A DNA stretch of 64,000 nt from a virus (IMGVR_UViG_3300031992_004563:265798-329797); one strand, 5' to 3'; shown: positions 15,232 through 64,000, counted from the first letter of the stretch. Translations and numbers: made by a program. The notes: a model not told the origin generated them from the letters alone.

Positions 15232-18006
15232 ATGGTATATAAAAATTTAGGTTTGCCTGCTACATTAATTCATAGTGTTAATGGCAAGAAATATACTTTA
15301 AATGGAAAATTATTGGCAGTTAATGAATCTTCAAAAACATGTACAATGCAATTTGGAGATAAGCAAAGTGAAAATATTCCATTAACAGAAGTATATTTAA
15401 ATGAAGCTGCATTATCAGATCTTATTAAAAAGACTGGTAAAAAACTTAAAGATGTTGCTGGCAAATTATGGGAAAAAATTAAAGGAATTGCTAAAATTGT
15501 TGGTGGTTGGTTAGTTCCAGTTGATCAAGATGGAAATGAGTTAATTCAATACATTAATAACCCACTTAACTTAGCAGTAATGCCACTTCCTTCATCAATT
15601 TCATATGCTCCATCAGAAAGAACAATTGCATTATGTGAAGAAAATGGTGCTAAAGTTCGTAACACTGGTTCATTAGATGAAGCTTTTGGATCATTAATTG
15701 ATAATGATAAAAGCCAAATTGAGACTTATTGGTCAAGAGTAATGAAGGAATATGTTAAAAATGAAAGTTTAACATTAAGTGATACAGTTAAATTGGTTAA
15801 TGAATCATATTATCAACGCGAAACAATTGATGGCACAGAACCAATTAATGAAGCGGTGGTTTCATTAAAATCACCAAATGAAAGAATGTATGGACGTTTT
15901 GTAAATACAAATGAATTAATTAAATTAATTACAGACAATATTTTCCACCAAATGCATCCATTATATGTTCATAAAAAAGGTGATAGTTATGTAAAACCAC
16001 TTTTAATTTGGGGTGCTCCTGGTATTGGCAAAACAGCCGTTATTAAACAAGCTGCTAAATTTATGAAAGAAAACTATAATACCAAGCTTGATCTTGTTAC
16101 TATGGCATGCGGTGGTATTAAAGTGGATGACTTCAGTTTGCCAGATACAGCTAAAAACCAATATGGTCAAGAAATTGCAGTTGAAATTCCAAAAACATGG
16201 TTACCTGTATATGATATCGATGGTTTATCAAAAGAACAAATTGAAAGACTTGATGCTTTTTATAATAGTGGTAAATATCGTATTAGAGACTTTATGTCAG
16301 ATGACCTTAAAGATAGAAAAGATAAAAATGGTGAAAATGTTTTAAGCTTGGAAGATAATGGTGTTGGTGAATCATATGATGGTGGTATTTTATTCTTCGA
16401 TGAGTTTGCTCGTTTACGTCAACAAAAAGTAATGGATGTAATGATGACTCTTTGTGGTGATAGAACATACCAAAAAATGATTCTTGCATCAGGTTGGTCA
16501 ACAATTGCAGCTGCAAACCGTCTTACAGATGATAAACTTCCTGAAAATAATGTAGACTTCCGTTCTTTATGGGGTGAAGCAATGAAAACTCGTTTCACAC
16601 ACTTAACATTTGTTCCAACAAAAGTTGAATGGTTAAGATGGGCAAGAGAAGTCAATGAAGATGGATACCAAAATGTTGATGAATTAATTTGTAAATTTAT
16701 TGAAAAATCACCAGATGGTGTTTGGTATGATGCATTAGACTTTGGTTCAAGAGAAATTGCAGATCCAGATGTTGCAAGAATTCTTGGTGTTGATGCATCT
16801 TCCAAAGGCGCGAAGGGTGGTTCAAGTTCAAATGGAACATGGGGTACTAATGATTTAACACGTGATGAATTAAGAAAAGTTTCTAAATACAATTCAGATG
16901 TAAATGCAAATGTTGATAACATGGAAATGATTGCATGGAATGGCCGTACATGGGATCAAAAAATCTCACGTGTATTCTTAAGTGGTTTACGTCAATTATT
17001 CTATGGACATCCAGATTGGTACGAAGATTGCTTCTCAACACAAAAACGTGTTCGTGAATTAAATGGTGGTGCAAGTTCAGAAGAATATATTGTTAAAAAT
17101 ATAGATGTCAATAAATTAAAAACTCAATTAAATAAAGTTCCAAGAGATAGATGGTTCAATTGGACAAAAGGTATTTATGAAAAAATTGATCCAAGCCAAA
17201 ATTCAAGAAATAATGATAGATATGATTTCTTAATGAAATATCTTGGATATATTATTGAATCTGAAACAGGTAAAGGTGGTGTTCCAAGTAAAGCATGGGA
17301 TCATTATAACAGTATTGATTCAGTTATTGATGAAATTGATATCCGTGAAATTTATAATAAAGGACAACTTAGAAGCACAGCTGCAAGAAGAGATGATAAT
17401 ATGTTATTTGATACAATGGCAGATTATAGTCAAGCAACAGCTGTTAACTGGAAATCTAATATTGCAAATGTTGATGAAGTTATTTCTATTGTATTAGATG
17501 CACTTCCAAAATACATTACAGTTGATGAAATTATTAAAGATCAAAAACGTATTGAGAAATTTGCAGGTAAATATGCTGCTACTCCTGCTGATTTACAAAT
17601 GTTTAAAGATGAATATACTTTGCATTTAACAGATGAAAATGGAAAAGAAATTAAAACTGTTCCAACATTATTCTCAAAAGCACTTGAATATAATGAAGAT
17701 CTTGAAGAAAGAGTAACATTTGTATTAAAACAATCAGGTGTTGCTAAAAAACTTGCAAATGTTGCAATGTGGATTTCAAAAGTTGCAATTCAAATTAATC
17801 AAAATACTCCTATTACAGCTGCACTTGGTATTGAAGGTGAAGCAACCGATGGAACACTTGCAGATAGAGTATATAAGATTATGGAAGGCAATCAAGAAGC
17901 AATGGCATTCTATGAAAAAGATTCAGAAATTAGAAAATATAGAATCATGGATCCTGCAATTGTAATTTTGAAAGCAATGAGATTCTATAGAGAATCACAA
18001 CAATAA
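15232..18006 (+). CDS. Large AAA+ ATPase (MoxR/CobS/AAA_5-like); no in-frame TAG
   Basis: 924-aa uninterrupted ORF. Walker A LLIWGAPGIGKTAV, Walker B GGILFFDEFARL and a sensor-1-like motif STIAAANR. Confidence 0.75.
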   Translation: MVYKNLGLPATLIHSVNGKKYTLNGKLLAVNESSKTCTMQFGDKQSENIPLTEVYLNEAALSDLIKKTGKKLKDVAGKLWEKIKGIAKIVGGWLVPVDQDGNELIQYINNPLNLAVMPLPSSISYAPSERTIALCEENGAKVRNTGSLDEAFGSLIDNDKSQIETYWSRVMKEYVKNESLTLSDTVKLVNESYYQRETIDGTEPINEAVVSLKSPNERMYGRFVNTNELIKLITDNIFHQMHPLYVHKKGDSYVKPLLIWGAPGIGKTAVIKQAAKFMKENYNTKLDLVTMACGGIKVDDFSLPDTAKNQYGQEIAVEIPKTWLPVYDIDGLSKEQIERLDAFYNSGKYRIRDFMSDDLKDRKDKNGENVLSLEDNGVGESYDGGILFFDEFARLRQQKVMDVMMTLCGDRTYQKMILASGWSTIAAANRLTDDKLPENNVDFRSLWGEAMKTRFTHLTFVPTKVEWLRWAREVNEDGYQNVDELICKFIEKSPDGVWYDALDFGSREIADPDVARILGVDASSKGAKGGSSSNGTWGTNDLTRDELRKVSKYNSDVNANVDNMEMIAWNGRTWDQKISRVFLSGLRQLFYGHPDWYEDCFSTQKRVRELNGGASSEEYIVKNIDVNKLKTQLNKVPRDRWFNWTKGIYEKIDPSQNSRNNDRYDFLMKYLGYIIESETGKGGVPSKAWDHYNSIDSVIDEIDIREIYNKGQLRSTAARRDDNMLFDTMADYSQATAVNWKSNIANVDEVISIVLDALPKYITVDEIIKDQKRIEKFAGKYAATPADLQMFKDEYTLHLTDENGKEIKTVPTLFSKALEYNEDLEERVTFVLKQSGVAKKLANVAMWISKVAIQINQNTPITAALGIEGEATDGTLADRVYKIMEGNQEAMAFYEKDSEIRKYRIMDPAIVILKAMRFYRESQQ

Positions 18007-18031
18007 TTATTAAAAATAATTAAATTTGAAT

Positions 18032-18060
18032 AAAGGCATATTTTATTAAAGTATGCCTTT
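18032..18060 (+). terminator. Hairpin terminator (AAAGGCATA…TATGCCTTT)
   Basis: Inverted repeat directly after the ATPase stop codon. Confidence 0.5.
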
Positions 18061-18101
18061 ATTTATGTAAAATAAATATAAAAAATATTAAATAGAAAAA
18101 T

Positions 18102-19127
18102 ATGTCATCTATATTTAATGGGCAATTTGGAAAAAATACTACAGATGATCAAAAACGTACATATCAATGGCATGAAGATCAAGAGACACGATCAAAATAC
18201 CAATATAAAGAAAGATATAAAAGTATAAATATTTCCAAAATATTAGAAGATAAAATTCCATTAACAAGTGGTGGATATATAACAATTAAACCTGCAGCTA
18301 TTGCAGATGATGTCAAGTTAATGATGGATGAAATGAGGCGAGATCCAAAATATGAATTTATTAAGCCTTATATTCAAAAACCTGTTATTTGGACATATGA
18401 AATAGGTGCAGCATTAACAGATGGTATTCGTATTTATATGTCACCAATATTTGCAGCAACATTACTTAGTTCAAATCCTAGAACTGGTATGGGTGGTAAA
18501 GAAGCAGATGAATTTTGGAATAATTTAAATCCTACCGAACAACGTGATTCTAAAAACCGTGCACAATTCAGAATGATGAAAACTAAATATGTTAGATTTG
18601 CAATTATTCATGAAGTTTATCATATCATATATAATCACGTTAGACGTGGTATTCTTAAATATGGTTCAAATCCAACTAAACAAGAACATGATGTTGGTAA
18701 TATTTCAATGGACCTTGAAATCAATAGAGATATTGAATCAACTTTTCCAGATTTAAGAGGCTCAACAGAAAAAATTGGTGCAATATGGTATATGCATGAA
18801 AAATTCTTTAATAAAAATGGTAAGCCATTTATTAAAGATATTTGGGAAGATATATGGGATGATTTTATGAATAGAAATAAAGATTTTGATCTTTCTGATC
18901 CATTTGCAAATGAAGGAGCAAATCCTGTTCAAGAAGATAAAACTAAACAAGGCCCATTTGCAGATGGTTGGAGAAAAGCTGTTGATGCAATTAAAGGTAA
19001 AATGATTGATCCACGAACATTTAATATACCGGGTGGCTCTGGTACAATTAGTGGAAATATTAAAGACGCTTTAGACCAAATATTTAAAGCTGCCGCTGAA
19101 GGAAATGGTGTAGAAGATGAAGACTAA
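18102..19127 (+). CDS. Putative zinc metallopeptidase-like protein (HExxH: FAIIHEVYHIIYNH)
   Basis: 341-aa ORF without TAG. The HEVYH motif lies in a helix-like context. Its position between the AAA+ ATPase and the VWA protein recalls DUF2201-type metallopeptidase+VWA proteins that pair with MoxR ATPases. Confidence 0.5.
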   Translation: MSSIFNGQFGKNTTDDQKRTYQWHEDQETRSKYQYKERYKSINISKILEDKIPLTSGGYITIKPAAIADDVKLMMDEMRRDPKYEFIKPYIQKPVIWTYEIGAALTDGIRIYMSPIFAATLLSSNPRTGMGGKEADEFWNNLNPTEQRDSKNRAQFRMMKTKYVRFAIIHEVYHIIYNHVRRGILKYGSNPTKQEHDVGNISMDLEINRDIESTFPDLRGSTEKIGAIWYMHEKFFNKNGKPFIKDIWEDIWDDFMNRNKDFDLSDPFANEGANPVQEDKTKQGPFADGWRKAVDAIKGKMIDPRTFNIPGGSGTISGNIKDALDQIFKAAAEGNGVEDED

Positions 19128-19147: not shown

Positions 19148-21727
19148 ATGAAAAAAGAAAAGATTAATACTGATAGATTATTTGGAAAGCCTTTAAACGA
19201 AACAGACATTTATTAGGTTCCACCAACAGATGAAAATGGAAATGTTCATATGTTTTCAATTGATTAGCTTGCTGCAATTTATGAAGCAATGAAGCCATTA
19301 TTAAATGCATAGGAATTATAGGATTTTAATGATATGTCTCCTGAAGATTAGGAACAATATTTAACAGGCTTTGGTGCAAATATATTAGAATGGAAAAAAG
19401 CTAAAGAAGCAGCAAATGATCCTGACTCAGACGAATAGAAACCTGGTATGCCAGGACAACAACCACCAGAAGATGGTTTAGACCATTGGCAACCAGTAAA
19501 AAAATCAAAAAATAAAAGTCAACAAGGATAGCAACCAAAAGGCAATAAAGTTTATTCAGATATTCAAGAAGAACTTGATAAAATTGAATAGGAAAATCAA
19601 TAGGCTGAATAGGATGCAGAAAATAGTAACAATCAATCTGCTGATAGTAGTGATGCATAGGATATTGCAGATAACGCAAATGATATTGCATCTTCTGCAC
19701 AAAAAATGGCAGATGCAGCTTAGGCCGCTGCTGATGCTGCACAAAATGCGGCAGATTAGGCAGATGAAAATGCTCGTGATTCCGGCTCACCAAAGGATGT
19801 AAGAAATGCTGATAGATCTTAGAATTCAGCAGATGCTGCATAGGATTTAGCAAATCAAGCAAAAGAAGCAGCTGAAAGAGCATCTCAATTAGCAAAGGAT
19901 GCATAGGAAGCTGCTGATAGAGGTGATACATTAGAAGCTGAAAGAAAAACTAAAGAAGCGTATGATGCGGCTAAAGAAGCATCTAATAAAACTAGAGCCG
20001 CATAGATAAATGCAAAAGATGCATTAAATGCAAGTAAATAGACAGCACAAAATCAACCTGGCCAAAATGGTCAAGGACAATCAGGTCCAGGTCAAAATGG
20101 TCAAGGACAATCAGATAGTGATATTAATAATATGTCTGCATAGGATGCTGCTAATGCTGCTCAACAATCTGCTACAAATGCTCAAAATTAGGCAAATCAA
20201 GCATAGGCAGCCGCTGATGCAGCATAGGAAAAAGCAGATACATCTGGAAGTTCGGCTGATTAGGCAAAAGCAGATGCGGCTCAATAGGCAGCCGATAATG
20301 CTCAATCAGCTGCTGATTAGGCATAGGCCGCTGCTAATGCTGCTCAACAGGCAGCCGACAATGGAAATACATCTTCAGCACAACAATAGGCAAAAAATGC
20401 AAGAGATGCTGCAAATAGTGCTCAACAATATGCTCAGTCTGCTCAATAGAATACTGGACAATCTGGTCAACAATCTTCACAAATGTCAGGAGGCGAATCA
20501 GGTCAGAAAGGACAAAACAGTGAATAGGGTTCTGGCCAAGAATCTAATTCACAAGGCCAAAGCCAAGCTGGTTCAAATTCAGGTCAATTAGATCCAAATG
20601 GACGTCATGGATAGATTGGTAAACCTGGACAATAGGGCCAACAAGGACAACCTGGTGATATGGATGATGCCGATACAGACCCAACATTAAAAAAGGTTGA
20701 TAATAAATTTGACCAAAATGGCGAAATTGTTCATAAAAGGCCTGTAAGTCTTGATATGCCATTTGATGGAAATGATTTTGTTGCAAATGATGAAGAAATG
20801 AGAGAAAAATGTCGTGAAATGGCAGAACGTGCAGGTCAGCCACTTGACGCAGATGATTATATTTCTCCACAAGAATATGCTACAAGAAAATATCAAGAAG
20901 CAAAATCTGCATTACAAAAATGGAAACAAAATACACCTGGTTCTGCTGGTAATCCTCCTGGATATCTTACAGAAGTAATGGATAGATTATTTGCTACAGA
21001 AATTGATTGGCGTGATTTAGTTCAAGAATTTATGACAGATAAATCACCTGAAGATATTATTGATGTATGGTCTAAACGCCGTATGGGATTGCCTGATACA
21101 CACCCATTCCATAGAGGAAGATATTTGCATCCTTATGAAGATTTTGAAGAAAGAAGATCAGGTATTGCACAAGTATTCTTCTTAGTGGATGCATCTGGTT
21201 CTATGGGTGTAACTGCAGGTGATGGCAGAAATATATTTGAACATATTATGTCAGAACTTATTCAAATTGAATTATAGGTTAAAATTAAACGTTCTGCATA
21301 TGCAACATTTAATGCTGGTCATATTTATAGAGATGATATTTTCACTTGGACATATCAAGATGCAATGGATGAAGAATCATTAATGGAAGAATTTAAATTA
21401 CCTTCTGCTGGTGGTGGAACATCTGCAATAGAGGGTATTAAATCTATTCAAGAATATGAAGATGTATATAGTACAAATGACCCATGGACATTATTAATTG
21501 TAGTAACTGATGGTGGTGACTATTATGAAGGATTAAAAGATATTTGTAAAGACCCAGAATAGGTTGAACATATGTTATGGATTATAACAGCCGAAGGCGA
21601 AGATTATTTTAAAGGCAGAATTAAAGCTTTAGGTGAACAAGGTGTTCCTAGTGATCATATTGTATGTGTAGATATTAATAAAGAATGGGGTGTAGATGAA
21701 GAAATGGTTAAAAAGAGCAAAAGATAA
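19148..21727 (+). CDS. von Willebrand factor A (VWA/MIDAS) domain protein with a long N-terminal Ala/Gln-rich low-complexity region; about 40 in-frame TAG codons
   Basis: ATG at 19148 is in frame 2 with track ORFs 20660-21277 and 21365-21562, and there are no TAA or TGA codons until 21725-21727. The MIDAS motif VFFLVDASGSMG is present. TAG codons replace CAA/CAG in parallel AAQ-AADNA repeats. Confidence 0.65.
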
Positions 21728-25292: not shown

Positions 25293-25763
25293 ATGAATAC
25301 AATATATATGACATCTGATAGTGAGAATAAGTTGAGGTCAATATATACAAATTTAAAAAACTATTATATATTAGATGTATAGTCTTTTATAAAAAGTTTA
25401 AATTTGGATATGAATAAACAAAGTAGTATATTCATTATTAATGATGAAATACAAACTTTAGTGAGTTCATAGTTGAAACTTAAAAAATATAAAGGTGTCA
25501 TATATATTAATCATCATTTATCAAAAGAATTATACAATTCATTTAAACTTTATTTTTAGAAATGTGGAGAAGATATTAAAATTGTCTTAATTGACAATGG
25601 ATAGTTTCCAAAGCATTAGGATATAATGGATATATTTGATGAAGTTATTTTCTATGAAAGATTTAGAAAAAATAAAATCGTAGAATTTAATGGTTTTGAT
25701 AAAAATCAAAATGACGTCATTAATAATATTAATATGGATGAAAATGATTTAGGCGATGAATAA
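25293..25763 (+). CDS. Small hypothetical protein with 5 in-frame TAG codons
   Basis: ATG at 25293. Frame 0 is open to TAA 25761-25763 apart from the TAGs. TAATG overlap with the next gene. Confidence 0.4.
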
Positions 25764-51966: not shown

Positions 51967-51968
51967 AA

Positions 51969-52457: not shown

Positions 52458-53004
52458 AATAGTATAAACTGTTTGTATTAAATTGTCCTACCCGATTAAT
52501 TGAACTAAATGTTCCTTCCCAATCTTGCAAAGGAATATTATGTTGAAACAAATCATTAATATGATTCATAAAATAGATTTCATATTCACAAATTTCATGA
52601 TCCAACATAATATCATTTATGCATTGAGTATTTAAATATTGATGTGCTTCTTCTAAATTAGAAATAAACATACCAGTAAAAAATCCATGAAGATGATGAG
52701 TTTGTGCAAATGCAGACGCCCAACACCAAACACCAATAATATTTTGAGCATGAATTAAATGTACATTATTTTCATGTATAATATATTGGCCAGAATCCAA
52801 ATTAGGATGAAGCAAACCATAAGATGTTCCATGACCACAAATAATTAATGTGTCATCTTCAGTTATTAATGCTTCTTCTACTGCATCTTCATAATTCTCA
52901 TCATCATGACAAATTACAATTAACCGGTCAATATGCAATCCTTGCCACATTGCCTGTAGCAAGCCAGTATCCCGATCACCACTATTTGCATATATTACTG
53001 TCAT
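52435..53004 (-). CDS. Hypothetical protein
   Basis: 189-aa ORF. Confidence 0.45.
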   Translation of the reverse strand: MTVIYANSGDRDTGLLQAMWQGLHIDRLIVICHDDENYEDAVEEALITEDDTLIICGHGTSYGLLHPNLDSGQYIIHENNVHLIHAQNIIGVWCWASAFAQTHHLHGFFTGMFISNLEEAHQYLNTQCINDIMLDHEICEYEIYFMNHINDLFQHNIPLQDWEGTFSSINRVGQFNTNSLYYYDVQQTN

Positions 53005-53010
53005 ATCTTA

Positions 53011-53427
53011 TTATTTTATTAAATATTTCTTATATGTTTCAAAAATAGATAAAATGTTATCTCTTCCAGGAGGATTGCTTGAATGGCATTCATAATATGG
53101 AAATTCAAATCCATAATCTTCTATAATATCACATATTTCTACTGCAACATTATATCCTGTTTTTTCATCATCACTTATGTATGAGCCTAAATCATGGTCA
53201 AGACAAAAACAATTAACATATTCATTTGGATCTTCTTTTATCCATTTATTGCTCCAATCTACCCATGCATCATATGATTTACACCATACGATTTCAACAT
53301 CATGCCCATCAACCAAAGATAAAAATTCCTTTGGAACAACTTTATTCCAATAAGTAAATAAACTCATTGGATCACGTTGATCATCAATCCAAATTACTCT
53401 GTACTTTGTCTGCTTCATTATTGTCAA
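53011..53427 (-). CDS. Hypothetical protein
   Basis: 138-aa ORF. Confidence 0.45.
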   Translation of the reverse strand: MTIMKQTKYRVIWIDDQRDPMSLFTYWNKVVPKEFLSLVDGHDVEIVWCKSYDAWVDWSNKWIKEDPNEYVNCFCLDHDLGSYISDDEKTGYNVAVEICDIIEDYGFEFPYYECHSSNPPGRDNILSIFETYKKYLIK

Positions 53428-54046
53428 ATATTTTTAAATTCATAAGTTTTTTAACTAATTCATCTGGAATATCTTGAAAATCAATCCAGTCCCATTTAGC
53501 TATCATAAATGAAACCCCATTTTCTCGAGGAGTATCATATGCATCAAATATTCCATTCCAAACTTTGCTACGTTGTCTCCATTGTCTCCATGTTAAATTT
53601 GGATCAGGATCGCCTTGGTCACCATACCAATACTCATCAACAATGGTCATCAATAAATCTATATTTTCATCTTTTCCATAACCAAATTCTGGACCAAAAT
53701 AATTTCCATATAAATTTCCATGATATGGATAAATCATTACTTCAAACGGATAATCAAGTTCTCCTCTTAATCTAGCTTTTTCTGTATCATCACCAATTCT
53801 ATGAAGATCCCTAACAATTTCAAGTTTAACTGCTAGTAAATTCATTTCAGTTGGATCATTTTTATATTTTATAATATCTTTTTTAAGATAATCACTCATC
53901 TTAGAAGCCAACCCATAAAAATTTTTATTAAGCAATGAATTTGCCATATTTTTCAATGCTTGTTTTCTAATAGACTTTAATTGGTCTAAAGCTTTTTCAA
54001 TACTTTTTGTACGAAACTTAATTCCTGTGTATACAGTAAAACTCAT
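53384..54046 (-). CDS. Hypothetical protein
   Basis: 220-aa ORF with a promoter motif copy at 54073-54114. Confidence 0.45.
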   Translation of the reverse strand: MSFTVYTGIKFRTKSIEKALDQLKSIRKQALKNMANSLLNKNFYGLASKMSDYLKKDIIKYKNDPTEMNLLAVKLEIVRDLHRIGDDTEKARLRGELDYPFEVMIYPYHGNLYGNYFGPEFGYGKDENIDLLMTIVDEYWYGDQGDPDPNLTWRQWRQRSKVWNGIFDAYDTPRENGVSFMIAKWDWIDFQDIPDELVKKLMNLKIFDNNEADKVQSNLD

Positions 54047-54072
54047 ATAATTAACATTTTTAAATTTTATGA

Positions 54073-54114
54073 TGCAAAATTAATATATTTCTATTAAATT
54101 AAAAAATAGAAGAT
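54073..54114 (-). promoter_or_regulatory. Conserved promoter motif copy
   Basis: GCAAAATTAATA…AAAAAATAGAAG upstream of the ATG at 54046. Confidence 0.5.
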
Positions 54115-54189
54115 TCCAATTATTATATAAAAACATAGAAGGTTGTTTCACAACAACCCTCTATTTAAAATCTTCTAATATTAACAAAT

Positions 54190-55359
54190 TTAATATGATT
54201 CAATATTAAGATCATGGAAACATTGTGCAATTTCCGTTTGATCACCCATTACTTTGCCAGCATCGTCACTTACTTTAATACAATTAACCATTGGGCTATT
54301 TGCATTCATTCGACACATTGTAAGTTTCATTACAATATTCTGACTTGGCGTATTGGTATCACATGTAAGATTAGTTCCAATACCGGCAGAACATTTAATT
54401 TTGCCTTTGCAATAATCAGCAATTGCTTTAAATTTTGGGAATGTTAATGCATTAGAGAATACAATTGTTTTGTCCTTTGGATCAATTCCCTTAGATTTAT
54501 AAGCTTCAATTGCCATTTGGGTGAATTCATACTCATCACCTGAGTCATGACGAACACCATCAAACAATTTTGCATGCTTCAAACTAAATGTATCGAAGAA
54601 TGCTTTACTTCCATAAGTATCTGTCAATGCAATACCAAGAGCACCATCATAAACAGATACCCAATCCTCATAGGCTTTATAGTTTGCATTGCGATAACCA
54701 AACTGTGCGCCATGGAACATTACCCACTCATGAGCAACAGTGCCAATAGGCTTCATATCATACTTCATTGCAAGGTGTACATTGGATGTTCCTACACAAT
54801 AAAGTGCATTTTCTTTAAGACGTTTTACAACGGCATCCTGAACGGCATAACTGAAACGACGACGAGTACCAAACTCACTAAATACCAATCCATGCTCATT
54901 GGACAATGCAATTTTCTTATCGAGACGAGAAAGTACATCAGCCATATTAACGATATGAACACTATTAGAAATTTCAGATACAATTGCAAGACATGCAATC
55001 TCCCAAAGTGTTAAACTATAAAGTTTATCAGCTGCAGTAATATGCAAAATTTGACTATCATCAAGCCATGCAGTTACTTTAGTTGAATCAAATCTAAATC
55101 CACGAAGCCATTCCCAATAGAATTGAGGAATATATGTAATATGATTTTTACACCAATAAAACTCTTCGTCAGTAAGACTTAAATTTTCAAGTTCTTTAAT
55201 ACTTTTGATAATTCTATCCAATTCACCACGAGTTCGTTTAACTCGATTTCGGTCAAAAAACTCAAATACACCTTCAGCTTCAGGATAAAGCTTCATGTAT
55301 GCATAACTCATACTAAGTTTGTACAAGTCAGTGTCCAAAATACTTTTAATTACTCCCAT
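54190..55359 (-). CDS. pncB: Nicotinate phosphoribosyltransferase
   Basis: Aligns with E. coli PncB at ILDTDLYKLSM, FSEFGTRRRFSYAVQDAVVKRL, IGTVAHEW, GIALTDTYGS and VRHDSGDEYEF. Confidence 0.85.
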   Translation of the reverse strand: MGVIKSILDTDLYKLSMSYAYMKLYPEAEGVFEFFDRNRVKRTRGELDRIIKSIKELENLSLTDEEFYWCKNHITYIPQFYWEWLRGFRFDSTKVTAWLDDSQILHITAADKLYSLTLWEIACLAIVSEISNSVHIVNMADVLSRLDKKIALSNEHGLVFSEFGTRRRFSYAVQDAVVKRLKENALYCVGTSNVHLAMKYDMKPIGTVAHEWVMFHGAQFGYRNANYKAYEDWVSVYDGALGIALTDTYGSKAFFDTFSLKHAKLFDGVRHDSGDEYEFTQMAIEAYKSKGIDPKDKTIVFSNALTFPKFKAIADYCKGKIKCSAGIGTNLTCDTNTPSQNIVMKLTMCRMNANSPMVNCIKVSDDAGKVMGDQTEIAQCFHDLNIESY

Positions 55360-55362
55360 ATC

Positions 55363-56835
55363 TTATTTTAAATTAAAATGTTGTTCAATATATTCATATA
55401 ATGCTTCTGGAGTGTTTTCAATAATGTTATCCAAAAGAGCATCTTTCATCATTTTTTTAATTTCACCAATTTGTTTACCTGGTTCAAGATGGTATTTCTC
55501 CATAAGATCATTGCCAGTTACGCATGGTTGGAACATACGAACATAATCCTTATGAGCAATATCTTCAATACGTTCCATTAATTCATTATATCTAAATTGG
55601 AAGTTTTGTTTCTTGTTTTCGTTCTTTGTCGTAATATCAGAATTAGCAAGAATCATCAATTCCTTGATATAACCATTTGCATCATTAACCAAACGACGAA
55701 CACCTGCATCGGTTACTTCATCTCCACAAATTGCTTGAGGACGCATATGAAGTTGAACCATAAGAGCAGTAAATTTCATATTTTCATCCTGAGGCATTTT
55801 TAACCGTTTAAATATAGATTCCACCATCTTTGCACCTACATATTCATGATTGTCAAAAGAATAACCATTGTGGGCATCATAATGACGTGTAGGTATTTTA
55901 CCTATGTCATGTAATAGTGCGGCAATACGAAGATATACATTCTCAGTTTGTAAACAAACACTTCGTAAAACATCTAATGTATGCCAATAGATATTTTTAT
56001 GTTTATCTGTATATCGAGGACCACACTTACCAGTAGTATCAAGTGCATCCACTTCAGGCAAAAACTTTTTAAGTAATCCAGTATTCTTTAAAATCTCAAT
56101 GCCATCAGCTGCATAATCTGAACTCATAATTTTTAAGAATTCTGTCATAATACGTTCAGCTGAAATAATATCCAAACGATCCAAATTTTTTACAATTGCA
56201 TTATATGTAGTTTGTTCAATGCCAAAACCAAGTTTACATGCAAAACGAACTGCACGTAACATACGCAATGGGTCATCAGAAAAAGTAATATCTGGATTAG
56301 TAGGAGTTTTAATAGTACCAGTTTTCAAATCTTCAATACCACCAAATGGATCAACCAATTCTCCAAAATGATCACTATTAAGGCAAATAGCCATTGCATT
56401 AATTGTAAAGTCACGACGAAGTTGGTCATCTTGAAGAGTGCCTTCCTCAACAATAGGTTTACGACTACCACGCTCATAAGATTCCTTACGTGCTCCGACA
56501 TATTCTACTTCAAAATCACCAAATCGAACCTGTGCAGTTCCAAAGTTTTCAAAAATAGACAATTTAATATTTTTGAAATTAGTTTGTGTTTTAAGATATT
56601 GCTCAAAATGACGAGCCATTACTTGCCCTTTTCCAACTACAACGACATCAATATCGTCATTAGGTCTGCCAAGAAGCAAATCACGAACATAACCACCAAC
56701 AACATAACAAGGATATTGAAGGTGATCAGCCACATATTTGATATTGCATAAAACTCCAAAAACTTCTTTATTTCGTTTTTGAATTTCTTTTAAAATACTT
56801 TCTTTGTCTAATTGTTTTAACATATATTTTTTCAA
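55363..56835 (-). CDS. cca: tRNA nucleotidyltransferase (CCA-adding enzyme, class II head domain plus HD domain)
   Basis: GGYVRDLLLGRPNDDIDVVVVG, RRDFTINAM and HD motif HTLDV…LLHDIGK. Confidence 0.8.
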   Translation of the reverse strand: MKKYMLKQLDKESILKEIQKRNKEVFGVLCNIKYVADHLQYPCYVVGGYVRDLLLGRPNDDIDVVVVGKGQVMARHFEQYLKTQTNFKNIKLSIFENFGTAQVRFGDFEVEYVGARKESYERGSRKPIVEEGTLQDDQLRRDFTINAMAICLNSDHFGELVDPFGGIEDLKTGTIKTPTNPDITFSDDPLRMLRAVRFACKLGFGIEQTTYNAIVKNLDRLDIISAERIMTEFLKIMSSDYAADGIEILKNTGLLKKFLPEVDALDTTGKCGPRYTDKHKNIYWHTLDVLRSVCLQTENVYLRIAALLHDIGKIPTRHYDAHNGYSFDNHEYVGAKMVESIFKRLKMPQDENMKFTALMVQLHMRPQAICGDEVTDAGVRRLVNDANGYIKELMILANSDITTKNENKKQNFQFRYNELMERIEDIAHKDYVRMFQPCVTGNDLMEKYHLEPGKQIGEIKKMMKDALLDNIIENTPEALYEYIEQHFNLK

Positions 56836-56843
56836 TTTGATGT

Positions 56844-56884
56844 TGCAAAATTAATATATTTCTATTAAATTAAAAAATAGAAGC
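56844..56884 (-). promoter_or_regulatory. Conserved promoter motif copy upstream of cca
   Basis: TTGCAAAATTAATA…AAAAAATAGAAG. The -7 box lies about 12 nt from the ATG at 56835. Confidence 0.5.
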
Positions 56885-56928
56885 TAATTATTTTAGCTCC
56901 TATTCATTATTTTGTTTCACATTATGTA

Positions 56929-57576
56929 TTAGATTACATTAATTTGACAAGATCTCATTACTTCAAGTGCAGCCTCATGTTTTTCAGGAGTAACACCTGC
57001 ACAGCATTTACTATCTACTGTAATCTCCGCAAAATCATATGTAAATGCTTTAAGAATAAGTGCATTAGATACTACACAAATATCTGTACAGAATCCACAC
57101 ATTTCAATCTCCATAGGAATAGGCTCATTTTGATGGTCTTTTTCCAAATTCATAATACACTCAGGCAGAGACACATGATTCTCGAAAAATTCTTTCCATT
57201 GGCCAACAAGTTTCTCCTTAATGCGTCCACCCTCTACAGAGCCAAAAGTAAACTTAGGAATAAACTTGATTTCCAATCCTTGTTTTGCTTTTTCCATTGC
57301 AGCATCTTCAATTTGACTAGTTACTCGCCAACCACATTGAATTTCATATCCTTGATCACATATACAATGCTCTACTGGAAGCTTCTTGCCCTCACGGGTT
57401 TCAAGATAATTATTAAAATGGGTATCCATTGTCAAGAAAATAGCATCACCATCAAATGTCAAAATCTTGTCTACAATATTAGGCACTGCTTTCTGCGCCT
57501 CTGTATTTTCTAATGTTCCATAGATGAAGTCATTCTGAGCATCAACTACAACCAAAACTTTAATCTTGTCTTTCAT
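56929..57576 (-). CDS. pncA: Isochorismatase-family hydrolase, probable nicotinamidase
   Basis: VLVVVDAQNDF and GFCTDICVVSNA match the PncA/isochorismatase fold. First gene of an operon with cca and pncB. Confidence 0.65.
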   Translation of the reverse strand: MKDKIKVLVVVDAQNDFIYGTLENTEAQKAVPNIVDKILTFDGDAIFLTMDTHFNNYLETREGKKLPVEHCICDQGYEIQCGWRVTSQIEDAAMEKAKQGLEIKFIPKFTFGSVEGGRIKEKLVGQWKEFFENHVSLPECIMNLEKDHQNEPIPMEIEMCGFCTDICVVSNALILKAFTYDFAEITVDSKCCAGVTPEKHEAALEVMRSCQINVI

Positions 57577-57578
57577 AA

Positions 57579-58391
57579 TTAAATTAATGTTTTTGCTTTT
57601 TCTAACAAATCTTTAAAACAATTCATAAACTCCTCTGCCATTTCTTGTGTCGGGAATGATAGCATTGTTATCCAACCATTATAGCATTTGTTAACTGTGA
57701 ATCCTTCAGACACTGTAGAAACAATACAATATTTAGGATTTTTATGTGATGTTTCTTTACTCCAATCTGGACGCCAATTGTCAATCCATGCTCTACGCAA
57801 TCTAATTAATCGACCATATGCAATAAATGCATCTGCATCATCCTCGTCAAAGCCATGCGCAAAATGAGGATAATAATGCATATGTTTTTCAAATGGATAA
57901 AAATTATCACAGTAATCTTCCCATGTTTGAGGAACTTTAGGTTTAGGATTTAATTCCTCTTCATCAAAAACTTGAAGAGCAAATTCTTTTGCCTGACCAC
58001 CAGCTTTATACATTTTTTGAGCTTCCTTAAGAGTAAGCCTAATGCATCTTTCTACTATATCAGTGTCACCATATCGATTTTTTACTACATTATCGTCAAC
58101 TATAATTTTAGATGCAATGCGTTTAAGTTGTTCTGCTGACTTAGAATCAATATCTTTAAATGGACTTTGATCAAATTCCAAAATCACTTTTGGCCAATGT
58201 CCATTGCGTTTTGTATTTGTGTTTTTCTCACATTTTTGAATTTCATATGAGTAATAAAATCCTATAGCGCTGCCAACATCAACTCCATACACACGACGCT
58301 CACCATTTGAACATGAACTATCAATTACTCCAATTTTTCCAGTTTTATTAACTTTAACCCTGTCGCCAATTTGAAATTTTTTTTGTGCCAT
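57579..58391 (-). CDS. Hypothetical protein
   Basis: 270-aa ORF with a promoter motif copy at 58411-58459. Confidence 0.5.
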   Translation of the reverse strand: MAQKKFQIGDRVKVNKTGKIGVIDSSCSNGERRVYGVDVGSAIGFYYSYEIQKCEKNTNTKRNGHWPKVILEFDQSPFKDIDSKSAEQLKRIASKIIVDDNVVKNRYGDTDIVERCIRLTLKEAQKMYKAGGQAKEFALQVFDEEELNPKPKVPQTWEDYCDNFYPFEKHMHYYPHFAHGFDEDDADAFIAYGRLIRLRRAWIDNWRPDWSKETSHKNPKYCIVSTVSEGFTVNKCYNGWITMLSFPTQEMAEEFMNCFKDLLEKAKTLI

Positions 58392-61156: not shown

Positions 61157-61450
61157 TCACGCTAAAGTTTTTAATCTTGTAAATAACAAATCTTTATCAC
61201 CCAAACATGCTACGGCTGTAATGGTATTATTTAAATCTGGTTCTTCGAAGAAACTAAAGTCATATTCATGTTCTTTCATTTCTTCAATCTTTTTATCTAA
61301 TCGGCAATTAAGATAAATTAAAGTTGTATTTAAATCATACTCACCTGGGTGTTCAAGAATCCATTGTGCCAAAGCATGTCCACCTTGAACAGATGCATAC
61401 ATAGGTGCTAACCTACGATTGCATAAAATATACATTCTTTTTTCTTCCAT
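61157..61450 (-). CDS. Small PTH2-like protein (degenerate; …SVQGGHALAQ…TAVACLGD…)
   Basis: Weak pattern similarity to PTH2 in a 97-aa ORF. Confidence 0.3.
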   Translation of the reverse strand: MEEKRMYILCNRRLAPMYASVQGGHALAQWILEHPGEYDLNTTLIYLNCRLDKKIEEMKEHEYDFSFFEEPDLNNTITAVACLGDKDLLFTRLKTLA

Positions 61451-62283
61451 TATTCTATAGGTTTTATAAACTTAAGTGTTTTATATGTGTTTATTGCATA
61501 ATTTGGTATATTGTCAAATGTATATACACCATTCCCATCTGGTATACTTGGGTCTGAATAAAATTTTATATTTTCTGGCAGTTTTTTAATATCTATCTAT
61601 AATATTGTATATTCATTATCATCAAGATGTTCAGTTTTATCTCTAAAATCCTAAAGCATTTTCATTATACATAGTTGATGATCTGATAATGCATCAGTTT
61701 TTGTTCCCATTAAATATATTCTATCTGGATAAGAAAATACATTATTTTTATGTTTTGGAATTAAACCATTTTTTAAAATTTTATTTACATTAATAGAGGG
61801 TGTTGCATGATACAAATATTTATATGTTTTAATTATATCTGTAATATCTTTTGCAAATTTCTATTCAAAAATTATAATTAAAAGACCTTTATAATGTCGA
61901 GGATTTAATAATTTATAATATCCACATGTATTCATAAAATGAATTAATTCACCAACTATATTTTTCGATGTATTTTCATCTAACATAAATACAATTTGAT
62001 TATTTAAAATACCATTATTTCTACGCTTTGTTATTTCAACTTGAAAATCTTTTAAATCAAATTTTCTACATGCCAATTCTTTAACTTTATTTATATCATA
62101 TGATTTAATTAAACCTTCATTTATTTCATCTTTTAACATATTCTCATATGATAATATATTTGTTAATATTTCAGTTTTTAAAGATTCATCTATTTTTTCT
62201 AATTTTCCAGATGAACCTGATTTAAATAATTCTTTATTTTTATGATATTGTATTATTAAATTTTCAAGTTCCTGTGTAGACAT
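61450..62283 (-). CDS. Hypothetical protein read through three in-frame TAGs (61861-61863, 61651-61653, 61597-61599)
   Basis: Track ORF 61861-62283 ends in TAG. The same minus-strand frame has no TAA or TGA until 61450-61452, which overlaps the next ATG (TAATG). Confidence 0.45.
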
Positions 62284-62349: not shown

Positions 62350-62380
62350 AAATAGAGGACCGATTTCTCGATCCTCTATA
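62350..62380 (-). terminator. Hairpin terminator downstream of the capsid gene (AGAGGACCGATTTCTCGATCCTCT)
   Basis: Near-perfect inverted repeat after the 62406 stop. Confidence 0.45.
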
Positions 62381-62405
62381 ATATAATGGTTTTTAATTAT
62401 TAAAA

Positions 62406-64000
62406 TCAAAGACCACGGCAATCAACGAAGAATGTAAGGTATTGAGTTTCTGGGAAGAAACCTGCGTCTACCAATGCATAACGTGATTTAATCATGAGTT
62501 TTGGAGCCATTGTACCTTCAGCGATGATACGAACAACTTCGGCCATGATGTATGGGCAGAAATGAACACCTGGTTCGTCTTTTGCACCTTTACGTCCAAC
62601 TAATACACGAGTATCAGAAGCTTTCATCAATGGGTCTACGTAAACTGTTAAACCACATACTGTACCGATTGGGTAAAGTTGACCTGCAGTTTGTTTAACT
62701 GTATTTTCAATTGGTGAGAAGCTATAATGTGCATCAGATTGTAACAATGTAGCAACACGGATGTTAGTTACAACGAATGTAGCAGCACCGTAACGACCAC
62801 GTTGTTGGATCCAGTTAGAAGCAGCTAAGATATTTGTGAAGATTCTCTTGATGAGAGTGTCACGGTTTTCGAAGTTAGCGCCTTCAATAACACCCATAGG
62901 CATTAATGGAAGTTCAACCATTCTTTGAGAAGCGTAACGTTGTTCAGCATCAATATATTCACCTTCAGGAATAGCAAATGCGCGTACTTCAGGATCAGCT
63001 GTTTTGTCGAATTTTTGGAAAGTCATATTTAAGCAAGCTTCAAGACCTTCAACTTCAACAAGTTTAGCGTGGTTCTTCCAACCAAGAGCAAATAAACGAG
63101 ATGTGATGTGACGGTTGATAGTTTGTGATAATTCATTAACACCAGCGTTTTCAACGATCTTTAATACATCGATACCCCATTGTTTTTGTAAGTCAGAAAC
63201 TTGTTCTTGAGTTACTGCACATGCAACTTGGATTGTACCAACTGCAATGTTCTTTGTGAAGAGTTGTAATGAGATTTGACGAGCAGGAGTTAATTCACCT
63301 GTAGCGCGGCTCATTGGTTCATAAAGAACTGTACCATCTTGGTATGTACCAGCCCAAGCATCTTTATCTACTTCACCAGCACCAGTAAAACCAAGAAGTG
63401 AATCTTCTAACATAGAGATTAATTTAGGAGCTTTAACTGTTAAGTTTACATCACCTTCTAATTCTACGTCACCATTAGCGAATGTTTCGCCAAGAGATTG
63501 GTCACCATTAACAACTTTGAACATTGGGTCACCATCAATACGACTCCAACCAATAAATTCAACTGTAAGGTGTTCGTCTTTTTCAACTAAAACTGTACCA
63601 GCTTTTAAACCAGCTTCTTCAAGTTCATGTTTAACAATAACTGCTGGTTTTGCATCAGAACCTTCAGCAAGTACAAGAGCAGCTTTAAATGCGTGAGGAA
63701 GACCATATGCTTCAAATGCTCTATTTGCAACAGTATTAGCTTTTGGTGTACGAGCACTATGAATGTATGCAGGATTTGCATGATCAGCATCAAATGCAGG
63801 AGTTGCACCATATGGTTGTTTGCTACCACTGTATACATAATCCATATATGGAAGAACACCACTAGGACCTGCAAGAGGAGTAGTATTTACAAGTTCAAAA
63901 CCAATAGTTTTAGCAGCAACTTTCATTGCTAATGGAAGAAGAGCTGGGAATTTATCACCAGAACCAAGGATTTGGTCATCAGCTTGTGCTGAACCAGACA
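62406..64000 (-). CDS. Major capsid protein, T4 gp23 family (5-prime partial; the ORF continues beyond the window edge)
   Basis: C-terminal GVHFCPYIM…KSRYAL matches T4 gp23 GIYYAPYV…KTRYGI, and upstream DKFPALLPLA matches KKFPALAAS. The frame stays open beyond 63926 to position 64000. GC content and codon bias are noticeably higher than in surrounding genes, and there is no in-frame TAG. Confidence 0.75.
   Translation of the reverse strand, partial: SGSAQADDQILGSGDKFPALLPLAMKVAAKTIGFELVNTTPLAGPSGVLPYMDYVYSGSKQPYGATPAFDADHANPAYIHSARTPKANTVANRAFEAYGLPHAFKAALVLAEGSDAKPAVIVKHELEEAGLKAGTVLVEKDEHLTVEFIGWSRIDGDPMFKVVNGDQSLGETFANGDVELEGDVNLTVKAPKLISMLEDSLLGFTGAGEVDKDAWAGTYQDGTVLYEPMSRATGELTPARQISLQLFTKNIAVGTIQVACAVTQEQVSDLQKQWGIDVLKIVENAGVNELSQTINRHITSRLFALGWKNHAKLVEVEGLEACLNMTFQKFDKTADPEVRAFAIPEGEYIDAEQRYASQRMVELPLMPMGVIEGANFENRDTLIKRIFTNILAASNWIQQRGRYGAATFVVTNIRVATLLQSDAHYSFSPIENTVKQTAGQLYPIGTVCGLTVYVDPLMKASDTRVLVGRKGAKDEPGVHFCPYIMAEVVRIIAEGTMAPKLMIKSRYALVDAGFFPETQYLTFFVDCRGL

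What the first reader, a model, noticed from the sequence alone, without database searches (positions are those of the whole stretch)
15232..64000. Recoding is confined to a gene subset. The capsid, ATPase and metabolic/repair genes are TAG-free, and no suppressor tRNA lies in this window.
Long genes without a single in-frame TAG include the AAA+ ATPase (924 aa), flotillin (650 aa), the 48054-50045 ORF (663 aa), pncB, cca, the RNA ligase and the gp23-like capsid gene. Adjacent genes such as the VWA protein carry dozens. This bimodal distribution fits the proposed use of stop-codon recoding to gate expression of a late/lytic gene set until a suppressor tRNA is available. Unusually, the major capsid gene is on the TAG-free side. 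The only intact tRNA here is Arg(UCU), not a suppressor.
Basis: partly seen in the sequence, partly recalled or inferred. Interest (0 to 1): 0.7.

Follow-up and report, generated by a model that had tools for sequence, protein, structure and literature searches.

The report
Amber-codon use follows promoter class
This is part of a roughly 500-kb Lak-like gut megaphage that reads the TAG stop codon as glutamine, but only in genes behind late-type promoter motifs. Genes behind host-type early promoter motifs contain no TAG, which refines a pattern already published for Lak phages.

Summary
The AAA+ ATPase, Band7/flotillin, the 663-aa ORF, pncB, cca, both RNA ligases and the gp23-like capsid gene have no in-frame TAG. 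The VWA-like gene has 33, and a peptidase-M15 (endolysin-type) gene has 16. Only tRNA-Arg(TCT) and a tmRNA are present.

The window is an exact piece of a 497,886-bp ENA contig. Its capsid protein is 64% identical to those of Prevotella Lak megaphages. Patchy TAG use, tRNA(CTA) and RF2 were already reported for Lak phages (Devoto 2019), and the "gating" idea comes from Borges et al.

What I add:
- TAG use tracks promoter-like motifs. Six copies of a conserved element with a Bacteroidota-type TAnnTTTG box head transcription units with 1 TAG in 200 Gln-type codons. Units behind a T4-late-like ATAAATA motif have 90 in 492.
- The complete Lak-C1 genome shows the same split (39 of 40 versus 28 of 119 first genes TAG-free).
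- Inside the late class, TAG is optional. AAA+ and VWA swap status between lineages.
- The capsid gene is not special. It sits among TAG-containing genes, and its closest relatives carry 1–2 TAGs.

Overall this is a known kind of system with a useful refinement.

The parts
15232..18006 (+). AAA+ ATPase, 924 codons, 0 TAG out of 30 Gln codons. A late-like motif AAAATAAATATAAAAA lies at 15183-15198, 39 nt before the ATG.
   Evidence: Lak orthologues carry 5-10 TAG.
18102..19127 (+). Metallopeptidase-like ORF, 341 codons, 0 TAG. It corresponds to the N-terminal part of a single fused gene in Lak-C1. A late-like motif lies at 18069-18084.
19148..21727 (+). VWA-like protein, 859 codons, 33 TAG. 31 of them lie in the low-complexity N-terminal 500 codons. 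A DASGS MIDAS-like motif sits in the C-terminal domain.
   Evidence: The Lak orthologue has 0-1 TAG in about 77 Gln codons.
25293..25763 (+). 156-codon ORF with 5 TAG out of 8 Gln-type codons. A late-like motif lies 26 nt upstream. The Lak-C1 orthologue also has 5 TAG.
25763..27907 (+). 714-codon protein with an N-terminal Peptidase_M15_3 / endolysin-type domain and 16 TAG.
   Evidence: phrog_894, 3.6e-31; PF08291, 2e-13
28947..30877 (-). Early-type transcription unit: a 359-codon ORF plus a family-25 glycosyltransferase. Its only TAG is the penultimate codon of 29798-30877, followed by Tyr and then TAA.
30902..30953 (-). Copy 1 of the conserved early-promoter-like element (T-run, about 20 nt, then TAATTTTGTA).
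   Evidence: families D4/D6
31013..35330 (-). Band7/flotillin operon of 4 ORFs, 0 TAG out of 70 Gln codons. TTATAAAC lies 24-27 nt before three of the ATGs. Promoter class unassigned.
38949..58391 (-). TAG-free block of about 19.4 kb. It holds RNA ligases, an AGT-like glucosyltransferase, a C5 methylase, DUF5662, the 663-aa ORF, pncB, cca, an isochorismatase-family gene and others. It is divided into units by early-type elements at 41586-41637, 50068-50119, 54073-54124, 56844-56895 and 58418-58469.
61450..62283 (-). 277-codon ORF directly downstream of the capsid gene, 3 TAG out of 8 Gln-type codons.
62406..64000 (-). C-terminal 531 codons of the gp23-like major capsid gene. The full gene is 623 codons and ends outside the window at 64277. 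It has 0 TAG and 25 CAA.
13158..13232 (-). tRNA-Arg(TCT), the only tRNA in the window. It is not a suppressor.
4451..6601 (+). DUF285-repeat protein, 716 codons, 8 TAG. It lies outside the stated range but belongs to the same recoded class, in a unit headed by the late-like motif at 4103-4118.

Best explanation
The window comes from a Lak-like megaphage in which TAG encodes glutamine. TAG use is set first by when a gene must be translated.

Genes transcribed from host-sigma-type early promoters must be read by the unmodified host machinery, where TAG is still a stop. These promoters are a conserved element of about 50 nt containing a Bacteroidota -7 box, TAnnTTTG. Genes behind them are kept strictly TAG-free.

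Genes transcribed from T4-late-like promoters ((A)ATAAATA, 20-40 nt before the ATG) are translated after the phage tRNA(CTA) is available, so TAG is tolerated there.

Within the late class, TAG density is not functionally fixed. It drifts, with CAA/CAG and TAG interchanging and with repeat expansion in low-complexity segments. It is held near zero in some genes, most clearly the very abundant capsid protein. It can flip between orthologues in different lineages.

Shown: the codon counts, the motifs, their association, and the orthologue comparisons. Inferred: that the motifs are promoters of early and late classes, and that the suppressor is expressed before late translation.
For: Identity of the phage:
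- The capsid protein is 63.7% identical to Prevotella phage Lak-A2.
- The window is identical to ENA contig k141_6601451, 497,886 bp.

TAG encodes Gln:
- TAG aligns with invariant Gln columns in capsid alignments, and with CAA in this phage where the closest relatives have TAG.

Promoter association in the window plus flanks:
- The early element appears as an unsupervised repeat family, 6 copies. Four copies match within 3 mismatches against 0 expected.
- The 27 genes in those units have 1 TAG in 200 Gln-type codons. The 39 genes in late-motif units have 90 in 492.
- The late 16-mer occurs 6 times against 0.64 expected.

Complete Lak-C1 genome:
- TAG share per gene is bimodal.
- ATAAATA is enriched upstream of TAG-rich genes: 60 of 77 versus 11 of 55, p = 4.5e-11. 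It peaks 20-30 nt from the ATG.
- The first gene after GTATCTTTG is TAG-free in 39 of 40 cases (1 TAG in 163). The first gene after the late motif is TAG-free in 28 of 119 (555 TAG in 1670).
- At transcription-unit level, Fisher p = 5e-12.

Closest relatives L001-L003: all 25 genes in early-type units are TAG-free.

TAG is optional within the late class:
- AAA+ has 0 TAG here and 5-10 in Lak phages, both behind the late motif. VWA has 33 here and 0-1 there.
- The capsid gene has 0-2 TAG across 19 relatives.
- The Lak-C1 capsid gene uses 23 CAG, 2 CAA and 2 TAG, which indicates codon selection.

Early and TAG-containing genes share composition and codon usage (GC 0.309 versus 0.298, r = 0.94), which argues against recent import. 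The Lak-C1 tRNA(CTA) genes lie at the end of a five-gene TAG-free run.
Against: - No transcription data are available. The promoter assignment rests on motif resemblance and fixed spacing only. No gp55-like factor was looked for.
- The motifs were partly discovered by contrasting TAG-free with TAG-rich genes, so part of the association is circular. The unsupervised repeat family and the relatives mitigate this.
- In Lak-C1 the late class has far more TAG-free genes than a single binomial predicts: 21 observed versus 0.7 expected among genes with at least 10 Gln codons. Promoter class therefore does not explain everything.
- 9 early-unit genes in Lak-C1 do contain TAG. These may be unit-assignment errors.
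- TAG codons in Lak-C1 lean toward the 5' part of genes, which would suit an active gate.
- The suppressor tRNA of this particular genome was not located.
- The promoter class of the Lak-C1 suppressors is unresolved.
- The Band7 operon and tmk-thyA are TAG-free but carry neither motif.
Confidence: 0.6

Rival explanations
1. Active translational gate (Borges et al.). In-frame TAGs are positively selected in lysis and structural genes so that their proteins cannot be completed until the suppressor tRNA accumulates. TAG is itself the timing device.
For: - The most TAG-dense genes with a recognisable function include an endolysin-type peptidase with 16 TAG, the first at codon 8.
- Genes flanking the capsid gene are recoded.
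- TAG is skewed toward the 5' end of genes in Lak-C1.
- Orthologue class is mostly conserved between this phage and Lak-C1: RNA ligases, cca and the glycosyltransferase are TAG-free in both, and the 156-aa and 714-aa genes are recoded in both.
- The model is published.
Against: - TAG-containing genes already sit behind a distinct late-type motif, so a translational gate would be redundant.
- The capsid gene, the archetypal late gene, has 0-2 TAG across the clade.
- AAA+ and VWA swap TAG status between lineages.
- Late-class genes without any TAG are much more common than chance predicts.
- The 5' skew may partly reflect start-codon miscalls.
Confidence: 0.25
2. Expression-level selection alone. 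TAG is decoded slowly or leakily in competition with RF1, so it is purged from highly expressed or long genes and accumulates by drift elsewhere. There is no temporal component.
For: - The capsid gene is TAG-poor in all relatives and shows strong Gln-codon bias in Lak-C1, 23 CAG of 27.
- TAG piles up in a fast-evolving low-complexity segment of the VWA gene.
- TAG status flips between orthologues.
Against: This does not explain why whole multi-gene units of small accessory genes behind one conserved element are uniformly TAG-free: 1 in 200 here, 1 in 163 in Lak-C1, and 0 in 134 in relatives. Those genes are unlikely all to be highly expressed.
Confidence: 0.1
3. Recent acquisition. TAG-free genes (NAD salvage, tRNA and RNA repair, DNA modification) were imported from standard-code bacteria or phages and have not yet accumulated TAG.
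For: Most genes of the TAG-free block have no Lak-C1 homologue, and many are auxiliary metabolic genes.
Against: - GC, GC3 and codon usage match the TAG-containing genes (r = 0.94).
- The units are headed by a phage-specific repeated element rather than by diverse foreign promoters.
- Those genes that do have Lak-C1 orthologues are TAG-free there too, at 28-60% identity, so TAG-freedom has been maintained over long divergence.
Confidence: 0.05

Closest known systems
Prevotella Lak megaphages (Lak-A/B/C; Devoto et al. 2019, Crisci et al. 2021), genetic code 15
   Same: - gp23-like capsid protein 63-64% identical.
- Contig of about 0.5 Mb, low GC, TAG read as Gln.
- TAG absent from multi-kb regions and present in others, exactly as described for Lak-A1/A2.
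- Syntenic AAA+ / metallopeptidase-VWA / acidic protein / 156-aa / peptidase-M15 module.
   Different: - Only 22 of 77 window genes have a Lak-C1 homologue.
- GC is 29% versus 26%.
- The window-wide TAG share of Gln-type codons is 0.12, versus 0.26 genome-wide in Lak-C1.
- The metallopeptidase-VWA gene is split in two.
- TAG status of AAA+ and VWA is reversed.
- The early-element sequence differs: TAATTTTGYA here versus TGTATCTTTG in Lak-C1.
Stop-codon recoding as a regulator of late and lysis genes (Borges et al. 2021/2022; crAss-like, Garnet, Agate and other clades)
   Same: Only a subset of genes carries in-frame recoded stops. Lysis-type and structural-neighbourhood genes are recoded, and standard-code-compatible genes are presumed early.
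   Different: That work did not use promoters; the word is absent from the text. Here TAG-freedom maps onto a specific promoter-like element. The capsid gene and some other late-motif genes are TAG-free, which the model does not predict.
T4-type late promoters (TATAAATA, read by gp55; textbook knowledge) and Bacteroidota sigma-A promoters (-7 box TAnnTTTG; textbook knowledge)
   Same: The late-like motif (A/T)ATAAATA lies at a fixed distance of about 20-40 nt from start codons. The early element ends in TAATTTTG or TATCTTTG, 22-50 nt from start codons.
   Different: Function is untested. No gp55-like factor was sought. The canonical -33 TTTG at the usual spacing is not evident, and a T-run is conserved instead.

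Membership tests
Lak-clade megaphage | gp23-like major capsid protein closest to Lak phages | tested here: met
   tblastn gives 63.7% identity over 100% of the query to Lak-A2. All top 15 hits are Lak phages. The full-length alignment is 63% over 655 columns.
Lak-clade megaphage | Genome of about 0.5 Mb or more with low GC | tested here: met
   The source contig is 497,886 bp. Window GC is 29.4%. Completeness of the contig is unknown.
Genetic code 15 (TAG = Gln) phage | Long conserved ORFs interrupted only by TAG. Coding density rises when TAG is read through. | tested here: met
   Open frames of at least 150 codons cover 47.9 kb with the standard code and 58.2 kb with TAG open. The VWA, peptidase-M15 and DUF285 genes are restored.
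Genetic code 15 (TAG = Gln) phage | TAG aligns with glutamine in homologues | tested here: met
   In capsid alignments, TAG sits in two Gln columns (Gln in all 19 and in 16 of 19 other sequences). TAG in L001-L003 aligns with CAA in this phage. Comparison with the distant Lak-C1 is only weakly informative: Q or TAG in 6 of 38 positions, against a 2.5% background.
Genetic code 15 (TAG = Gln) phage | Genome encodes a tRNA(CTA) suppressor | not testable with these tools
   None was found in the 78 kb readable. The rest of the contig cannot be fetched. Lak-C1 has two, at 184.5 and 185.4 kb. The literature reports one in 38 of 51 Lak genomes.
Genetic code 15 (TAG = Gln) phage | Phage-encoded release factor 2 | not tested
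   No RF domain appears among the window proteins scanned or in the precomputed Pfam lists. It is reported for all complete Lak genomes.
T4-type late promoter class | TATAAATA-like box at a fixed short distance upstream of late genes | tested here: met
   In Lak-C1, ATAAATA lies 20-40 nt before the ATG in 52 of 77 TAG-rich genes versus about 4 of 55 TAG-free genes. In the window it lies before 16 genes, and the 16-mer occurs 6 times versus 0.64 expected.
T4-type late promoter class | gp55-like late sigma factor, and late timing of transcription | not tested
   No search for gp55 or gp33 homologues was made, and no expression data exist.
Bacteroidota sigma-A promoter | -7 box TAnnTTTG upstream of the transcription start | tested here: met
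   TAATTTTG occurs in all six window elements. TATCTTTG occurs in about 43 correctly oriented Lak-C1 elements, with 55 genomic copies of the 9-mer. I estimate about 6 copies would be expected from base composition.
Bacteroidota sigma-A promoter | -33 TTTG box at canonical spacing, and recognition by host RNA polymerase | tested here: inconclusive
   A conserved T-run (TTTTTTAATTT or TTTTTTTATTT) lies about 20 nt upstream, instead of a clear TTTG. Binding and activity are not testable here.

The most novel reading that the evidence does not exclude
In Lak-type megaphages the amber codon may not be the switch but a passenger of a transcriptional programme. A conserved host-sigma-type early promoter element marks transcription units that are kept strictly standard-code. 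A T4-like late promoter marks units where TAG is merely permitted, with its density then set by drift and expression level. If true, this gives the first promoter and temporal map for an uncultivated megaphage clade. It also gives a sequence-only way to separate 'must be translated before the code switch' genes from the rest.
Probability: 0.45. Interest if true: 0.55.

Novelty: new member of a known kind. Interest (0 to 1): 0.4.

Why it matters
Why some gut phages reassign a stop codon is still debated. The leading idea, a translational lock on late and lysis genes, rests mainly on which functional categories carry the codon.

Linking TAG-freedom to a specific, repeated, host-type promoter element, and TAG use to a T4-late-like motif, turns that idea into something testable from sequence alone. 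It also suggests a weaker reading: early genes are constrained, and late genes are free.

There are practical consequences too. The capsid gene cannot be used as evidence for or against recoding. Gene callers for such genomes need code 15 even where long stretches look standard-code.

Tried and rejected
- Megablast of 9 kb against phage genomes gave no hit.
- Exact look-up of the 506-aa capsid fragment failed because the gene runs off the window. One look-up was wasted on wrong coordinates.
- Walking along the source contig beyond about 7 kb on each side is blocked, because only window-encoded proteins may be looked up. The genome's tRNA(CTA) and RF2 could therefore not be located.
- The search for related loci with the single AAA+ protein found nothing. 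It worked with a two-sequence alignment, but returned only classical Lak and more distant loci, not the closest relatives.
- A degenerate tRNA(CTA) pattern scan of viral contigs returned 14 unrelated contigs and none from the close relatives.
- Inferring the TAG amino acid from alignments with Lak-C1 at about 30% identity was uninformative, with Lys the commonest partner.
- An Rfam relaxed scan did not recognise the tRNA-like fragment at 14034-14063.
- I considered and rejected a strand effect: TAG-free and TAG-rich genes occur on both strands.
- I considered and rejected a frameshift or assembly error at the metallopeptidase/VWA junction. It is a clean TAA, spacer, ATG boundary.
- I considered and rejected recent horizontal acquisition.

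Full report
**What the window is.** The window has 29.4% G+C. Its gp23-family capsid protein is 63-64% identical over its full length to those of Prevotella Lak megaphages, and all 15 best phage records are Lak. There is no nucleotide-level match to any deposited phage. Exact-protein look-ups show that the window is an identical piece of ENA metagenome contig ERZ27257202:k141_6601451 (497,886 bp), at contig positions 378,288-442,287 in the same orientation. I could read 6.8 kb further left and 7.5 kb further right, but no more. Three IMG/VR contigs have capsid proteins about 80% identical and are the closest relatives available.

**Checking the observation.** I used only TAA and TGA as stops. 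Several fragmented standard-code ORFs then fuse into long frames that contain many TAGs but no other stop.
- 19148-21727(+): 859 codons, 33 TAG.
- 25763-27907(+): 714 codons, 16 TAG.
- 25293-25763(+): 5 TAG.
- 4451-6601(+): 8 TAG.
- 61450-62283(-): 3 TAG.

A 500-codon frame free of TAA and TGA is essentially impossible by chance in a 29% GC sequence. The translations are also sensible proteins. They include a Peptidase_M15_3 / endolysin-type N-terminus and a C-terminal domain with a DASGS MIDAS-like motif.

Heterogeneity among genes is overwhelming. Chi-square gives p = 2e-42 by length and p = 8e-13 after normalising by each gene's number of Gln-type codons. ARAGORN and Rfam agree that the window holds only tRNA-Arg(TCT) and a tmRNA.

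Four corrections apply.
1. The capsid gene is cut by the window end. The full gene has 623 codons and remains TAG-free.
2. 31 of the 33 VWA TAGs lie in a Q/A/D/N-rich low-complexity half that contains TAG-bearing internal repeats, so they are not independent events.
3. Inside the window the distribution is graded rather than strictly two-peaked.
4. The VWA label is only motif-level.

**TAG means glutamine.** In an alignment of 20 full-length capsid proteins, TAG codons fall in a column that is Gln in all other sequences. They also fall in a column that is Gln in 16 of 19 others. A third column has CAA in this phage and TAG in its three closest relatives. This agrees with the literature for Lak phages.

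**This is already known in outline.** Devoto et al. [quoted passage not shown] They report that TAG is used in most regions encoding structural proteins, and that the genomes encode tRNA(CTA) and RF2. Borges et al. proposed that recoding keeps late structural and lysis proteins from being made before the code switch, and listed Lak among the examples.

**Whole-genome control in a relative.** I fetched the complete Lak-C1 genome (540,217 bp) and called 571 ORFs with TAG open. TAG makes up 26% of Gln-type codons overall. The per-gene share is clearly bimodal: 52 genes fall at 0-0.1, of which 37 are exactly zero, only 8 fall at 0.1-0.2, and a second mode sits at 0.4-0.5. Two tRNA(CTA) genes lie at 184.5 and 185.4 kb, 163 kb from the capsid gene, at the downstream end of a run of five TAG-free genes. 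The lack of a suppressor in a 64-kb slice that happens to contain the capsid gene is therefore expected.

**The capsid gene is not an anomaly.** In the source contig the capsid gene is flanked on both sides by TAG-containing genes. The 277-codon gene downstream has 3 TAG. The genes upstream have 1, 7, 3 and 5. Full-length capsid genes of the three closest relatives carry one or two in-frame TAGs. Classical Lak capsid genes carry one at codon 11, and others carry 0-2. The capsid protein is therefore made when suppression is available. It is simply TAG-poor, 0-2 of 25-30 Gln codons. In Lak-C1 its Gln codons are 23 CAG, 2 CAA and 2 TAG in a CAA-rich genome. This points to selection on codon choice in a very abundant protein.

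**TAG status is not fixed by gene function.** The AAA+ / metallopeptidase-VWA module is syntenic between this phage and the classical Lak phages, but the pattern is reversed.
- Here, AAA+ has 0 TAG out of 30 Gln-type codons and VWA has 33 of 96.
- In eight Lak loci and in Lak-C1, AAA+ has 5-10 TAG, and the fused metallopeptidase-VWA gene has 0-1 TAG in about 77 Gln codons.
- Here the fused gene is also split at a clean TAA/ATG boundary into a TAG-free metallopeptidase part and a TAG-rich VWA part.

Other orthologue pairs keep their class. RNA ligases, cca and the glycosyltransferase are TAG-free in both. The 156-aa and peptidase-M15 genes are recoded in both.

**Promoter class.** In Lak-C1, a k-mer contrast of upstream regions showed ATAAATA in 60 of 77 TAG-rich genes versus 11 of 55 TAG-free genes (p = 4.5e-11). 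The motif is concentrated 20-30 nt before the ATG. It resembles the T4 late promoter TATAAATA; that comparison rests on textbook knowledge.

TAG-free genes are instead preceded by a strongly conserved element, roughly TTTTTTTATTT-N12-TGTATCTTTG. Its 3' end is a Bacteroidota -7 box, TAnnTTTG.
- The first gene after this element is TAG-free in 39 of 40 cases, with 1 TAG in 163 Gln-type codons.
- The first gene after the late-like motif is TAG-free in 28 of 119 cases, with 555 TAG in 1670.
- Propagating along same-strand gene strings gives TAG shares of 0.066 versus 0.309, and Fisher p = 5e-12.

The window has its own version of both motifs. An unsupervised repeat search returns a six-copy family at 30902, 41586, 50068, 54073, 56844 and 58418, all on the minus strand. 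Four copies match within 3 mismatches against 0 expected. The consensus is CTTCTATTTTTTAATTTAATAGAAATATATTAATTTTG(C/T)A, ending 22-28 nt before a start codon. The 27 genes in the units these copies head contain 1 TAG in 200 Gln-type codons. These genes include the 663-aa ORF, pncB, cca, both RNA ligases, the methylase and the glucosyltransferases. That single TAG is the penultimate codon of 29798-30877, in the sequence TAG-TAT-TAA.

The late-like 16-mer AAAATAAATA(A/T)AAAAA occurs six times against 0.64 expected. ATAAATA lies 10-55 nt before 16 genes, and their units hold 90 TAG in 492 Gln-type codons. In the three closest relatives, all 25 genes in early-type units are TAG-free. Notably, the TAG-free AAA+ and metallopeptidase genes each sit directly behind a perfect late-like 16-mer, as does the TAG-containing AAA+ orthologue in Lak-C1. 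The capsid gene has a late-like motif about 230 nt upstream, and this is conserved in relatives.

**Interpretation.** The simplest reading is a temporal constraint. Genes transcribed by host polymerase early must be translatable with TAG as a stop, so they are purged of TAG. Genes transcribed late are translated when the phage tRNA(CTA) is present, so TAG is allowed. Within the late class, TAG share ranges from 0 to about 0.6 and changes between lineages. Some genes, above all the capsid gene, are kept nearly free of it.

This agrees with the published model on timing. It weakens the stronger claim that TAG is itself the gate, because late genes appear to be gated transcriptionally already and many of them have no TAG at all. 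In Lak-C1, 21 late-class genes with at least 10 Gln codons are TAG-free, against 0.7 expected.

Some points favour an active gate and keep that rival alive. The endolysin-type gene is among the most TAG-dense, with its first TAG at codon 8. TAG also leans toward the 5' part of genes in Lak-C1, with a mean relative position of 0.45 versus 0.51 (KS p = 5e-6). Start-codon miscalls may contribute to that skew.

Recent import of the TAG-free genes is unlikely. Their composition and codon usage match the rest, and they share a phage-specific promoter-like element.

**Limits.**
- All promoter statements are inferences from motif, spacing and resemblance. No transcript data were used, and no late sigma factor was sought.
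- Motif discovery partly used the TAG classes themselves.
- Transcription-unit assignment is crude.
- The Band7 operon and tmk-thyA are TAG-free with neither motif.
- This genome's suppressor tRNA and RF2 were not found, because the rest of the contig is out of reach.
- The three key papers read here do not mention promoters. I cannot exclude that the association is described elsewhere.

**Verdict.** The phenomenon is a known property of Lak-type megaphages, seen here in an undescribed member. The 'unusual' TAG-free capsid gene is ordinary for the clade. The useful new element is the link between TAG exclusion and a conserved host-type promoter element, together with the optional, lineage-variable use of TAG behind late-type promoters.

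Noticed in passing
window 3651-4052 (-): A phage-encoded tmRNA (Rfam 81 bits, tag peptide GEDEYAMAA). It lies in the same window as PTH2 (59789-60217), the CCA-adding enzyme and two RNA ligases, which together form a cluster of translation-rescue and tRNA-repair functions.
   Followed up: no
window 14034-14063 (-), next to 13235-14005 (-) and tRNA-Arg 13158-13232 (-): A 30-nt fragment resembling a tRNA acceptor plus D-arm (GGCTCGGTAGCTCAATGGACTAGAGCATAG). It lies just upstream of a late-like motif and an HNH/zinc-finger-like ORF (2 TAG) that abuts the intact tRNA-Arg. The ORF's Lak-C1 homologue (14 TAG) sits inside the tRNA array. It looks like a homing-endonuclease insertion that truncated a tRNA gene. 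Rfam does not call the fragment.
   Followed up: partly
window 18102-21727 (+): The single 851-aa metallopeptidase / Q-rich linker / VWA gene of Lak-C1 is split here into two ORFs in different frames with a clean TAA ... ATG boundary. The first part is TAG-free and the second carries 33 TAG.
   Followed up: partly
just outside the window: L036 6891-7173 (contig equivalent of window 64278-64560); also L001-L003 upstream of the capsid gene: The roughly 230-nt region between a late-like motif and the capsid start codon is well conserved among relatives. It contains a hairpin (GTTAC...GTAAC) 25-45 nt before the ATG, with a compensatory C-G to T-A change in L001/L002. This may be a structured capsid mRNA leader.
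   Followed up: no
window 32992, 35048, 35355 (-): TTATAAAC lies 24-27 nt upstream of the start codons of three genes of the TAG-free Band7/flotillin operon. This may be a third (middle?) promoter class.
   Followed up: partly
window 25239-25250 (+) and 29798-29806 (-): Two genes have a TAG one to three codons before their TAA stop (KKK-TAG-T-V-TAA and I-W-TAG-Y-TAA). This looks like former TAG terminators backed up by a nearby TAA. One of them is in an early-type unit, where TAG would still act as a stop.
   Followed up: no
L023 (Lak-C1 184533-185512) and L025 (Lak-C1 254126-254198): The two Lak-C1 tRNA(CTA) genes are separated by a TAG-rich, homing-endonuclease-like ORF. A tRNA with anticodon TTA (it would read TAA) is also present, as the literature reports for all Lak genomes, although TAA is clearly a stop.
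   Followed up: no
Lak-C1 whole genome (L020-L030): TAG codons are shifted toward the 5' part of genes relative to CAA/CAG. Decile counts fall from 192 to 96 for TAG but are flat for CAA/CAG (KS p = 5e-6). This could be biological (early abortion of translation) or partly an artefact of over-long start calls.
   Followed up: partly
window 15127-15231, 18007-18101; L036 upstream of the 1228-aa gene: Terminator-like G+C hairpins followed by a T-run sit immediately upstream of the late-like motifs of the AAA+, metallopeptidase and 1228-aa genes. This suggests each is an insulated late transcription unit.
   Followed up: no
window 242-1234 (+) and L034 476-3631: Proteins built of 14-residue (42-nt) S-H-A-E-G repeats, with a faint YadA-head-like hit. 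One repeat uses TAG at a position that is Gln, Tyr, Glu, Lys or Ser in the other repeats.
   Followed up: no
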